DNA from: an uncultured Chloroflexia bacterium
GTDB lineage: Bacteria > Chloroflexota > Anaerolineae > Anaerolineales > Villigracilaceae
Length of the DNA: 64,000 nucleotides
Reading direction: 5' to 3'
Assembly (NCBI GenBank): GCA_963757465.1
Contig: CAVWRY010000003.1
Coordinates: forward strand, 868,001-932,000
This document shows positions 16,901 to 19,900 of the stretch, in pieces; positions within the stretch are counted from its first letter, which is position 1, and every line of letters starts with the position of its first letter. Made by a program: the position numbers.

Positions 16901-19900
16901 GGACATCGTTGTGACCAGCCAGGTATTTGGTGGCACTTTGAATCACCAGGTCCGCACCCATTTCAAGCGGACGCAGGTTGAGCGGCGTGGCAAAGGTGCT
17001 GTCCACAATCGTCAGCAATTTGTGGGCGCGGGCGATCTCGATGATTTTGTGCAAGTCTGTCACGCGCAGAAAGGGATTGCTGGGCGTTTCAACAAAAATC
17101 AGGCGCGTTTTCGGCGTGATGGCGGCGGCGTAGGCTTCGGGTTTGTCATTTTCAACAAGGGTTGTCTCAATGCCCCAGCGGCTCATAATGGCCTGAGAAA
17201 ATTCGCGGGTCTGATAAAAGCTATCTTTGCTGAGAATCATATGATCACCGCTCGAAAGCAGCGTCAGCAGCGTAGTGCTGACGGCCGCCATGCCGGTGCC
17301 AAAGAGCAGGGCGCGTTCGCCGCCTTCCAGGTCGGCCAGCTTTCGTTCCGCCGCAGATTGTGTCGGGTTGCCATAGCGTCCATATTCGCTGCGACTGAAA
17401 GGGGCGTTGCCCGTGGCTTTTTCTTCCATGAAAGCCGTAATTTCGGCGCTGTTGCGGAAGGTATAAGTGGACGTACGTGCCACAGACGTAGTGATGGTGT
17501 GATAAGGTTTGTGCTTCTCTTCCCCGGCATGCACAGATCGCGTGGATGGACGTTGAGTCATGATGATGCTCCTTTTGTAAAAAGATAGTTAAACAAAAAC
17601 CCCTTCAACGTGGAGTACGGTTGAAGAGGGGTAGGTGCGTTGCCAACAACACTCATCTTCCAGACCCACCACATGGGCCTGCCGGAGTTGGCACCGTTTT
17701 AGCTTTTAGCGTTTAGCGATTAGACTTTAGCTTTGAGCTAAAATCTAACTGCTAATGGCTAACAACTAACTGGTTGCCGAGGTTTCGTAGGGCCGGTCCC
17801 TCCACCTCTCTTGATGATAAGAAATGCTTATCTGCTATTTAATTGCGGCGATAATATCACACGCAGAGGCGAATGTCAAAGATGTTTTTATTATCAAAAC
17901 TCCTTGTTGACATCTTTTCGACAGGTGTGTATAATTCGATCTCGCTTCTGCCCCGGCTAACGGGGGCAGTTGTATGAATTATCCCGGCTTCCCCGTATGC
18001 TGGCGGCACAGTCCGCGAGATAACTGGTGAAGCGAAGACCAGGAGAAAATATGAAATACGTGATTGTTGAAAGTGGCGGCAAGCAATATAAAGCCGTCGA
18101 AGGCGGTGTGATTGATGTTGACCGCCTGCATTTGGCAGCCGGTGAGAGCATCAACCTTGACGAAGTGCTCTTGCTGGTAGATGGCGATGCCATTACAGTC
18201 GGCACACCCGTGATCAAAGGGCTCACCGTGACCGCCAAAGTAGTGGAACACTTCAAGGGCGAGAAGACCTACAACTTCCACTACAAGCCCAAGAAGCGCA
18301 TTCGCCAGAAGACCGGACATCGTCAACAGTATACCCGCCTCGAGATCAAGACATTTGAGACGGTAAAGAGCAAGGAGAATTAATCATGGCACATAAAAAA
18401 GGTCGTGGTTCAACCAGCAATGGACGTGATAGTAATGCCCAACGTCTGGGGACGAAGAAATATGCCGGTGAAGCTGTTCTCTCGGGCAACATTCTCGTGC
18501 GCCAGCGTGGAACACGTATTCACCCCGGCGCGAATGTTGGCAAAGGCAAGGATGATACGTTGTTTGCAACCGTTGATGGTGTCGTGTTCTTCGACATCAA
18601 ACTTGGCCGCAAGCGTGTCAACGTACTACCTGGAGCCGCCATTTTGGCCGCTGCTGCTGCAGAAGCCTAAAGGATTTCATCAATGAAAGAAAAAATTCAC
18701 CCCACTTATTACGCAGAGGCCGAAGCTGTTTGCGCCTCCTGCGGCACCAAATGGAAGACCGGCTCCACCCGCAAGACCCTGCACGTCGAAGTTTGCTCGA
18801 ACTGTCACCCCTTCTTCACCGGCGAACAGTCGCGCATGCTTGACACTGAAGGTCAGGTGGATCGCTTCTACAAGAAACTCCAGGCTCGCCAGGAATATGT
18901 TGAGCAGCAGGTCGCCAAGGAAAGCTCCAAGACTTCCCCCAACCGTCCGCTGGCAGATGCTGACCTGGGCACCCGCCCAACTGCCGCGCTGGCTAAGGCT
19001 GGCATCACCACTGTTGGACAGTTCCTATCCAAGCTGGCTGAAGGCGAAGACGCCATTCTCGCTGTGGACGGTTTTGGCCGTAAGGCTTTGATCGACAGCA
19101 AGAAGAAAATCCGTGCGCTGGGTTATGATGTGCCGGGCTTTGTTGAAGAAGCCGCTTAATTTTTGCAATATCAGGTAAACTTGACAGGCAGATGCCATAA
19201 GCATCTGCCTGTTTTTTTGTTCAAACCCTGTTGGGTCATTTGTAATAACAAAAGGGAAGGTGTTTATGGATTGGTTTAATGCTATCCAATCAGGTTCTTT
19301 CTTTGACCTTAAGAAACGTATCATGCAAAAAATGCAATCGGCGCAGGTGAATGACCAGATTTCTGATGCTGCGCAAAAGGCTTTTGAGAAGGCATTGAGT
19401 TCAGAGAGTATTGTGCTTTCCCGCCCTGAAAAACAGCGCTTGTCGCACGAGATTTTGAAATCGATCTTAACGGATATGCTCGCAAAGCTGGATGAAGAAA
19501 AATAAGGGTGCGCTAAGATAGCAGGCAGGTAAACTTAAGATGCAAAATTACAAAGATATTCTGGCCGAAGTATTGATTGATGAGAAGACTCTGAAAAACC
19601 GCGTGCGCGATCTGGGACAACAGATTAGCCGCGATTATATTGGGGAGGAGTTGCTGCTGATTTGTATTCTGCGTGGCGGTGTGGTCTTTCTGGTCGATTT
19701 GATGCGCCATATTAGCGTGCCGCATGGGGTGGATTTTATGGCGATTGCATCCTATGGCGTGGGCGCGCGTACTTCGACGGGCAACATGCGCGTGACACTC
19801 GATTTGCAGACCAACATCGAAGGCAAGAATGTGCTGCTCGTTGAAGATATTGTTGACAGCGGACGCACCATTTCACAGGTGCTGCAAATGCTTGGCACAC

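What a model noticed while it worked through the whole genome (the two positions that open the first line are those of the whole stretch)
18683..19159. Ribosomal protein bL31 fused to an RNA-polymerase alpha-CTD-like domain
The only bL31 (g01887, 158 aa, in the rplU-rpmA-rpmE operon) carries a ~65-aa C-terminal domain that matches the alpha-subunit CTD, and this fusion is fixed across Anaerolineales. It likely gives the ribosome its own alpha-CTD to bind NusA, activators or the polymerase, coupling translation to transcription (or titrating alpha-CTD partners). A ribosomal protein with a polymerase domain would be a new coupling route.
Evidence so far: Residues 81-142 hit Pfam RNA_pol_A_CTD (E 7e-4, call 179); tail vs own RpoA CTD E 4e-9; 17 of 20 PDB hits are alpha subunits, best E 0.002. 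Full-length match (to residue 145 or beyond) in 34 of 34 other Anaerolineales genomes with a hit, 18 families; in a class-wide sample only 6 of 47, so not an assembly error. Paper searches and passages of a 2024 review of extraribosomal functions (PMC10931766, call 196) showed nothing on it.
(Added by a program. Inside this text positions count along the whole contig: contig position 868,001 is position 1 of the stretch shown here. "Call 12" and the like, gene names such as g00115 and contig names such as C1 are that model's own, and its searches are not shown. The text may have been shortened before it was handed on; [...] marks where a part breaks off. The agent that wrote the report below was given it as the finding of a first reader that could run no searches.)

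Follow-up and report, generated by a model that had tools for sequence, protein, structure and literature searches.

The report
Ribosomal L31 carrying polymerase alpha-CTD copy
This bacterium's only ribosomal protein L31 ends in a conserved extra copy of the small DNA-gripping tail domain of RNA polymerase, a module that related bacteria also attach to other ribosomal and transcription proteins and that likely works as a general nucleic-acid tether rather than a dedicated bridge to the polymerase.

Summary
Observation confirmed. ORF 18683-19159 is the genome's only bL31, followed by a predicted helical stalk and an alpha-CTD-fold domain (residues 88-148). The fusion is in 96 of 96 other Anaerolineales genomes with a match, 16 of 119 class-wide, and none seen in 63 genomes of other classes. 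A 3-4-residue insertion shared only with Anaerolineae RpoA marks the tail as a class-specific RpoA-CTD duplicate. The same module also sits on NusA, RpoC, bS16, bL21, XRE regulators and DUF4013 proteins. Nearly all copies keep R265 and G296 but change N294 to Gly, giving the canonical GhG helix-hairpin-helix. bL31 copies also lose N268, often K298, and gain a basic helix. Best reading (0.4): a sequence-independent nucleic-acid tether. Small helical nucleic-acid-binding add-ons on ribosomal proteins recur elsewhere (NCBIfam PRK12278, PRK12311; bL21-Rho_N). No paper was found in my searches. The scan found this fusion before on other DNA (at least 7 earlier notes). New variant of a known kind; interest 0.55.

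The parts
17907..17935 (+). Sigma-70-type promoter of the rplU-rpmA-rpmE operon, 12 of 12 consensus matches, 17-nt spacer
   Evidence: RNA-library contigs of relatives give no cover before 17947 in 4 of 4 runs
18051..18383 (+). rplU (bL21, 110 aa), no alpha-CTD module in this genome
18386..18670 (+). rpmA (bL27, 94 aa)
18683..19159 (+). rpmE: bL31 fused to an alpha-CTD-like domain, 158 aa
18683..18892 (+). bL31 type A (zinc-type) domain, residues 1-70, Cys 17/20/38/41 invariant in 121 close homologues
18854..18931 (+). Predicted continuous helix, residues 58-83: bL31's C-terminal helix extended into a stalk
   Evidence: AlphaFold model, (pTM of the whole chain only 0.40, so domain orientation is not predicted)
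18944..19126 (+). Alpha-CTD-fold domain, residues 88-148
18974..18976 (+). R98, equivalent of E. coli alpha R265; kept in 71 of 75 tails
19034..19042 (+). About residues 118-120: the insertion shared with Anaerolineae RpoA and absent from RpoA outside the class
   Evidence: 75 of 75 tails, 33 of 33 class RpoA, 0 of 23 outside
19070..19084 (+). G130-F-G132-R-K134: canonical GhG hairpin; Gly replaces alpha N294
   Evidence: Gly in 71 of 75 tails vs Asn in 54 of 56 RpoA
19100..19114 (+). bL31-specific basic patch on the last helix (K140, K141, R144)
   Evidence: K 74 of 75, K 65 of 75, R 69 of 75; mean charge +5.0 over residues 133-148 in 121 homologues
19183..19221 (+). Intrinsic-terminator-like hairpin (13 pairs) with U tract closing the operon
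   Evidence: contigs of two studies end at 19174

Best explanation
bL31 here carries a duplicated, diverged copy of the Anaerolineae RNA-polymerase alpha-CTD that likely acts as a sequence-independent grip on duplex nucleic acid, so that each ribosome would be loosely tethered to nearby DNA or nascent RNA rather than locked to one protein partner. Shown: the fusion, the fold (predicted model matching solved alpha-CTDs), the origin marker, the residue pattern and the spread of the module to other proteins. Inferred: that the fused protein sits in the normal bL31 site (N-domain on the central protuberance, C-part on the 30S head, as in E. coli); that the stalk displays the domain at the head; that R98 and the GhG hairpin contact phosphate backbones; that losing N268/N294 stops an abundant ribosome-borne copy from competing for UP elements; and that the target is DNA or nascent RNA.
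For: (1) One substitution pattern in all carriers: N294 is Gly in bL31 71 of 75, NusA 25 of 26, bS16 5 of 6, bL21 3 of 3, RpoC 7 of 8, XRE 2 of 3, DUF4013 6 of 6, against Asn in 54 of 56 RpoA; R265 and G296 stay. GhG binds DNA through backbone amides (PMC3783174 passage), and GFGxK mutants of B. subtilis PolX alter DNA binding (PMC3479172 abstract and passages); R265, N294, K298 are alpha-CTD's UP-element contacts (PMC5101437 passage). (2) The carrier varies: bS16 in 8 of 119 and bL21 in 3 of 115 other class genomes; 119 of the 120 best bS16 relatives and 91 of the 120 best bL21 relatives carry PF03118. These proteins lie far apart on the ribosome (recalled), which suits a tether and not a fixed bridge. 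(3) The 44 non-RpoA modules form one branch inside Anaerolineae RpoA (SH-aLRT 90, not starred). (4) Unrelated small helical add-ons occur on ribosomal proteins elsewhere: NCBIfam bL21 and uS2 models share a C-terminal domain with NuoE and phasin PhaH models; 3 of 3 long bL21 scanned from the phylum of G124 carry Rho_N. (5) Tail dN/dS about 0.27 vs 0.11 for the bL31 domain.
Against: No binding was measured or predicted. K298, a DNA contact, is kept in only 40 of 75 tails; whole subgroups have Ala or Ser there. The near-constant length (158-159 aa in most close relatives), the predicted rigid stalk and the bL31-only basic helix point to a defined docking site, which favours the head-docking rival. 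The NusA, bS16 and RpoC copies are net acidic (-4.4, -6.5, -3.8), odd for DNA binders. The domain tree has 76 columns and many open forks.
Confidence: 0.4

Rival explanations
1. The tail docks on the ribosome itself (16S rRNA of the head, or uS10/uS14/uS19) through its basic last helix and HhH face, and strengthens the bL31 bridge between the subunits; it has no role outside the ribosome.
For: bL31-specific K140/K141/R144 conservation not shared by RpoA or NusA copies; fixed stalk length and helix 58-83; M. pneumoniae bL31 has a C-terminal extension that reaches uS10 and strengthens the bridge (PMC11832420 passage).
Against: Does not explain why the same module with the same N294G change sits on bS16, bL21, NusA and RpoC; tail-less bL31 in 103 of 119 class genomes, including 4 genomes nested inside the main carrier clade on the RpoA tree.
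Confidence: 0.25
2. One reading: the tail is a ribosome-borne alpha-CTD that binds NusA (or RNA polymerase or activators) and couples translation to transcription.
For: E. coli alpha-CTD binds both NusA-NTD and NusA-AR2 (PMC5842316 passages); an extended bL31 C-terminus can reach uS10 (PMC11832420), the NusG anchor (PMC10931766); R265 kept; most carriers are expression-machinery proteins; a crude scan puts 20% of 558 predicted terminators within 12 nt of a stop, median 24 nt, below the roughly 30% that I recall as the mark of uncoupled species (uncalibrated here).
Against: Residues invariant in RpoA (N268, N294, E302, R at 293) are lost, and position 305 turns from mostly acidic to Lys; this genome's NusA already carries its own, degenerate copy of the module, and no E. 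coli-type acidic repeat was detected by Pfam; copies on bL21, bS16 and DUF4013 proteins do not fit one coupling geometry.
Confidence: 0.2
3. Modules bind one another (SAM-like or AR2:alpha-CTD-like pairs), linking ribosome, NusA and polymerase into a loose network.
For: SAM domains and the NusA-AR2 complex appear as weaker fold matches (Z 4.5-6); basic bL31 helix vs acidic NusA copies.
Against: No conserved complementary surface was identified; the set of carriers differs from family to family.
Confidence: 0.07
4. Decoy or near-neutral appendage: an abundant alpha-CTD look-alike that soaks up phage proteins aimed at alpha-CTD, or a tolerated passenger.
For: R265, the residue that T4 Alt/ModA modify (recalled), is the best-kept surface residue; alpha-CTD-like domains occur in defence proteins such as BREX PglW (PMC12839542 passage); the tail is absent from most class families.
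Against: A decoy should keep the surface it mimics, yet N268/N294 are gone; fixation in 96 of 96 order genomes and dN/dS 0.27 argue against neutrality.
Confidence: 0.08

Closest known systems
bL31 type A (RpmE; NF000612, TIGR00105, PF01197)
   Same: Residues 1-70 pass the cut-offs, four Cys, sole copy, in a ribosomal-protein operon.
   Different: 88 extra residues: a helical stalk and a folded domain.
RNA polymerase alpha-CTD (PF03118; PDB 1Z3E chain B, 4MEX, 1DOQ)
   Same: Same predicted fold (Z 10.4, rmsd 1.9 A over 67 residues), R265 and G296 kept, class-specific insertion shared with the genome's RpoA.
   Different: Not joined to alpha-NTD; N268, N294, often K298 and E302 lost; new basic last helix; window copy is below the Pfam cut-off.
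Mycoplasma pneumoniae bL31 (100 aa, PMC11832420)
   Same: C-terminal extension of bL31 on the 30S head.
   Different: A short extension (the last 20 residues contact uS10); no alpha-CTD domain is described in the passages read.
Long bL21 (NF008915, NF008916 / PRK12278) and long uS2 (NF008966 / PRK12311)
   Same: Ribosomal proteins whose family models end in an extra ~70-residue domain shared with unrelated proteins and weakly matching DUF4332/HhH proteins.
   Different: A different domain family: the Anaerolineae bL21 fusions match these models only over the bL21 part and linker. Function unknown there too (recalled).
RpoC with an alpha-CTD-like segment (NF011498 / PRK14906) and BREX PglW
   Same: alpha-CTD used as a portable module on other proteins (PMC12839542).
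   Different: Not ribosomal; in PRK14906 the segment is near the C-terminus (model 1316-1370 of 1459), whereas Anaerolineae RpoC carries it near residues 730-820.
E. coli NusA AR1/AR2
   Same: Small HhH-type domains at the end of NusA; AR2 binds alpha-CTD (PMC5842316).
   Different: No match to the tail profile (best -1.4 bits) and only 8 bits to the wider module profile; fold match Z 4.6.

Membership tests
bL31 type A | Score above the curated cut-off of the bL31 models | tested here: met
bL31 type A | Two Cys pairs for zinc | tested here: met
   C17, C20, C38, C41 in 121 of 121; some distant carriers lack them (L092, L132, L213, L214)
bL31 type A | Incorporated in the 50S/70S ribosome | not testable with these tools
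   inferred from being the only bL31 hit
alpha-CTD domain (PF03118) | Pfam gathering score 23.8 bits | tested here: inconclusive
   window copy 19.8 bits; orthologues P0117 28.0 and P0075 29.7 pass, P0048 21.7 does not
alpha-CTD domain (PF03118) | alpha-CTD fold | tested here: met
   predicted model: Z 10.4 to 1Z3E_B; TM 0.72-0.77, rmsd 0.9-1.7 A for the top Foldseek rows, whose E-values are weak (0.02-0.04)
Functional alpha-CTD (UP-element reader) | R265, N294, K298 (PMC5101437), with N268, G296, S299 (recalled) | tested here: not met
   window copy keeps R265, G296, K298 and lacks N268, N294, S299; family-wide N268 is not among the top three residues and N294 occurs in 2 of 75
Functional alpha-CTD | Linked to alpha-NTD within RNA polymerase | tested here: not met
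   fused to bL31; the genome keeps an intact rpoA with its own CTD
Functional alpha-CTD | Binds NusA, sigma region 4 or activators | not tested
Canonical HhH nucleic-acid-binding motif | GhG hairpin between two helices, often followed by Lys | tested here: met
   G130-F-G132-x-K134; GhG in 68 of 75 tails, GhGx[KR] in 42 of 75
Canonical HhH nucleic-acid-binding motif | Sequence-independent binding to nucleic acid | not testable with these tools
   needs a binding assay
E. coli-type NusA acidic repeat | Sequence match to AR1/AR2 and acidic character | tested here: not met
   no profile match; tail charge +2.4 in 121 close homologues
DUF4332 / PRK12278-type ribosomal add-on | Match to PF14229 or to the C-terminal part of NF008915/16, NF008966 | tested here: not met
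   no such hit for P0001 or among 42 tails; 6 of 42 hit HHH_5 weakly

The most novel reading that the evidence does not exclude
Anaerolineae duplicated their polymerase's alpha-CTD and spread it over the gene-expression machinery (NusA, beta-prime, bL31, bS16, bL21); in Anaerolineales the bL31 copy stands on a rigid stalk beside uS10 and docks on NusA or the polymerase, making a built-in, ribosome-encoded coupling arm that no model bacterium has.
Probability: 0.2. Interest if true: 0.85.

Novelty: new variant of a known kind. Interest (0 to 1): 0.55.

Why it matters
Every ribosome of a large, mostly uncultured order would display a polymerase-derived domain at the subunit bridge, the side where coupling factors bind in model bacteria. 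If it grips nucleic acid, it is a clean case for a recurring and unexplained habit, small helical nucleic-acid-binding domains added to ribosomal proteins, and it has a natural control: the parent domain, with known contacts, in the same genome. If it binds NusA or the polymerase, it is a new route of transcription-translation coupling. One 70S structure and one binding assay would separate these.

Tried and rejected
Assembly error or frameshift: rejected (120 best relatives all 154-181 aa; order-wide presence; a 474-nt RNA-library contig of a ~94% relative spans both domains). Generic HhH/SAM or NusA-AR origin: rejected by fold ranking, the shared insertion and the lack of an AR match. Single origin of all bL31 fusions: carriers are not one clade on an RpoA tree of 51 genomes (AU p 0.0006), but the domain tree does not reject one clade of tails (AU p 0.36); two gains or one gain with many losses both remain. 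Mutual exclusion of bL31 and bS16/bL21 fusions: 0 overlaps in the class sample, but 8 and 5 of 52 families give an expected overlap below 1, so it says nothing. Terminator spacing in carriers vs non-carriers: 8 of 27 vs 1 of 6 within 12 nt, Fisher p 1.0, no power. Foldseek on the full model was dominated by bL31 chains. ESM Atlas: best score 0.81, a lead only. No NF008916 member over its cut-off was found in 61 genomes of the phylum of G124, so the PRK12278 precedent rests on model-to-protein matches and recall. Transcription is not shown: the runs are contigs and no silent stretch was laid as control. Paper searches (open-licence PMC and bioRxiv only) listed nothing on this fusion; PMC7159879 passages were irrelevant; two papers (O'Reilly 2020; Johnson 2020) were not held. 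No supplements were opened; a domain-architecture table in a supplement or a subscription paper could hold this fusion.

Full report
Observation. The frame 18683-19159(+) encodes 158 aa and ends an rplU-rpmA-rpmE unit bounded by a perfect sigma-70 consensus at 17907-17935 and a terminator-like hairpin at 19183-19213. Residues 1-70 are zinc-type bL31, the only bL31 hit in the genome. Residues 81-142 hit PF03118 at E 6.6e-4, below its cut-off, but the family signal is clear: 41 of 42 tails hit PF03118, a tail profile finds alpha subunits in the PDB at 3.5e-11, and the tail aligns without gaps to the genome's own RpoA-CTD at 37%. An AlphaFold model of the tail (pLDDT 82) ranks five alpha-CTDs first among 48,161 chains (Z 10.4-8.8), ahead of RAD51-type N-domains (7.9), SAM domains (5.8 or less) and NusA-AR (4.6). 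The full-length model shows a helix from residue 58 to 83 between the domains, with low pTM (0.40). RNA-library contigs of close relatives cover 17957-19174, one spanning both domains; they show presence, not transcription.

Distribution. In 100 other Anaerolineales genomes, 96 had a match and all 96 include the tail; the 4 misses are incomplete genomes. In 120 other genomes of the class, 16 of 119 with a match carry it, in 8 of 52 families. In 63 genomes of other Chloroflexota classes no match lay in a frame shorter than 241 aa, so none looks like a bL31 fusion (the tally includes unpublished G149). Named records among 80 loci from a partial scan (7 of 64 parts) give 41 fusions, labelled Anaerolineales, Anaerolineae, Phototrophicaceae or Chloroflexota MAGs. 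Crude dN/dS over unsaturated pairs (44, 74 and 44 of 435) is 0.11 for bL31, 0.38 for the linker and 0.27 for the tail.

Origin. Between E. coli alpha positions 279 and 290, E. coli and 23 of 23 RpoA from outside the class have 12 residues; 33 of 33 Anaerolineae RpoA and 75 of 75 bL31 tails have 15-16. The tail therefore descends from the class's own RpoA-CTD. It is not alone. A search with the tail profile returned extra matches in many class genomes; fetching 58 regions identified the carriers as NusA (one or two copies), RpoC (inserted near residue 730-820), bS16, bL21, XRE regulators and DUF4013 proteins. This genome has three related copies (RpoA, bL31, and a degenerate one on NusA in which R265 is His) plus a stand-alone frame without the insertion. 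bS16 fusions occur in 8 of 119 and bL21 fusions in 3 of 115 other class genomes and are well represented in the protein collection (119 of 120 and 91 of 120 best hits carry PF03118). As a control, PF03118 gave 47 matches in 41 genomes of another phylum (tally includes unpublished G369), against 235 profile matches in 121 Anaerolineae genomes (different models, so only indicative). On a 64-row domain tree the 44 non-RpoA modules form one branch inside Anaerolineae RpoA (SH-aLRT 90); 19 of 23 bL31 tails, including the window's, form a starred group (98), one sits among NusA copies and three apart, but one clade of all tails is not rejected (AU p 0.36; 64 of 188 modules used; the 156-row tree is similar and poorly resolved). 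On an RpoA tree of 51 genomes the 18 carriers are not one clade (AU p 0.0006), and 4 non-carriers nest in the main carrier group. So the tail was gained twice or lost repeatedly.

What the residues say. Numbering was fixed by aligning fetched E. coli RpoA. RpoA keeps R265 (56 of 56), N268 (56), N294 (54), G296 (56), K298 (55), E302 (56). bL31 tails keep R265 (71 of 75) and G296 (71), lose N268, change N294 to Gly (71), keep K298 in 40 and have Asp, Ala or Glu at 302. The N294G change is shared by all carrier types and gives the GhG hairpin that binds DNA through backbone amides (PMC3783174, passages); the window's GFGxK is the motif whose mutation alters DNA binding in B. subtilis PolX (PMC3479172, abstract and passages). 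R265, N294 and K298 are the UP-element contacts (PMC5101437, passage). Only the bL31 copies add a near-invariant basic patch on the last helix (K140, K141, R144). Against a simple DNA-binding story: K298 is often lost, and the NusA, bS16 and RpoC copies are net acidic.

Mechanism. I commit, at 0.4, to a sequence-independent nucleic-acid grip that would tether ribosomes loosely to DNA or nascent RNA: one module, one shared change towards a generic HhH, many interchangeable carriers. Shown are the fusion, origin, residue pattern and spread; the ribosomal location follows from bL31's known role in bridge B1b (PMC10931766, passages); the binding and its target are inferred. Docking on the 30S head (0.25) is supported by the fixed stalk, the basic helix and the M. 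pneumoniae extension that reaches uS10 (PMC11832420, passages). A crude terminator scan (20% of 558 within 12 nt of a stop, 59 mid-gene control hits) does not exclude coupling; its threshold is recalled and uncalibrated. Module-module assembly (0.07) and decoy or neutral roles (0.08) remain. No complex could be predicted.

Comparison with what is known. The protein is a bL31 by every test available. The tail is an alpha-CTD by descent and fold and fails the test for a UP-element reader. alpha-CTD as a portable module is known from PglW (PMC12839542, passage) and from an NCBIfam RpoC model. Extra small helical domains on ribosomal proteins are recorded in NCBIfam bL21 and uS2 models, and I found bL21 fused to Rho_N in 3 of 3 long bL21 scanned from another phylum. 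Eight paper searches on the fusion and its kin listed nothing on it; PMC7297116 was seen as a listing only; supplements and subscription papers were not seen. The scan's own notes describe this fusion on other DNA at least seven times, and HhH add-ons on other ribosomal proteins; these are leads, not support.

Verdict. Real, conserved and apparently undescribed in print; a new variant of a recurring kind. The wider pattern, a class-wide spread of a de-specialised alpha-CTD over ribosome, NusA and polymerase, weakens the case for a special bL31 bridge and makes the module itself the testable object. Interest 0.55; the coupling-arm reading has probability 0.2 and would merit 0.85.

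Noticed in passing
window 17650-17820 (-): SAM-I riboswitch (RF00162, 75 bits), longer than the 108-position model, upstream of a 394-aa frame at 16377-17561 that looks like a PLP trans-sulfuration enzyme (label recalled).
   Followed up: partly
L184-L189, L202, L203 (e.g. L185:2211-6887): Anaerolineae RpoC carries an alpha-CTD-like insert near residues 730-820, inside Pfam Rpb1 domain 3; not detected in this genome's RpoC.
   Followed up: partly
L131, L138, L139, L094, L193, L194, L253, L254; L190-L192: bS16 and bL21 fused to the same module in other Anaerolineae families.
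   Followed up: yes
L224:280-1794 (G000:C3:235840-237726): This genome's NusA carries a degenerate copy of the module (R265 replaced by His) followed by a long acidic tail.
   Followed up: partly
L134, L136, L140; L126, L127, L142, L148, L195, L196: XRE-type HTH regulators and DUF4013 proteins ending in the module.
   Followed up: partly
L295:1483-2019, L298:1402-2010, L301:1396-1941: bL21 fused to a Rho_N domain in the phylum of G124: another transcription-factor domain on a ribosomal protein.
   Followed up: partly
L226:482-709 (G000:C2:34481-34708): Stand-alone 76-aa alpha-CTD-like frame, closest to NF005841 (below cut-off), without the Anaerolineae insertion.
   Followed up: partly
window 19540-20124 and 20130-20687 (+): Two tandem hypoxanthine-phosphoribosyltransferase-like genes (label recalled); most related loci hold one.
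   Followed up: no
window 19260-19505 (+): 81-aa frame after the terminator with no blastp hit in 80 related loci.
   Followed up: no
window 17945-17970 (+): GC-rich inverted repeat in the rplU leader, a possible autoregulation site; no Rfam match.
   Followed up: no
P0227; P0207, P0244, L197, L198: A 201-aa GNVR-domain protein ending in a near-copy of the bL31 tail (possibly a chimera), and multi-alpha-CTD proteins, some with sigma region 4.
   Followed up: no
L255-L294: Predicted intrinsic terminators were 27 in 400 kb of four carriers vs 6 in 400 kb of four non-carriers; confounded by GC content and kinship.
   Followed up: no
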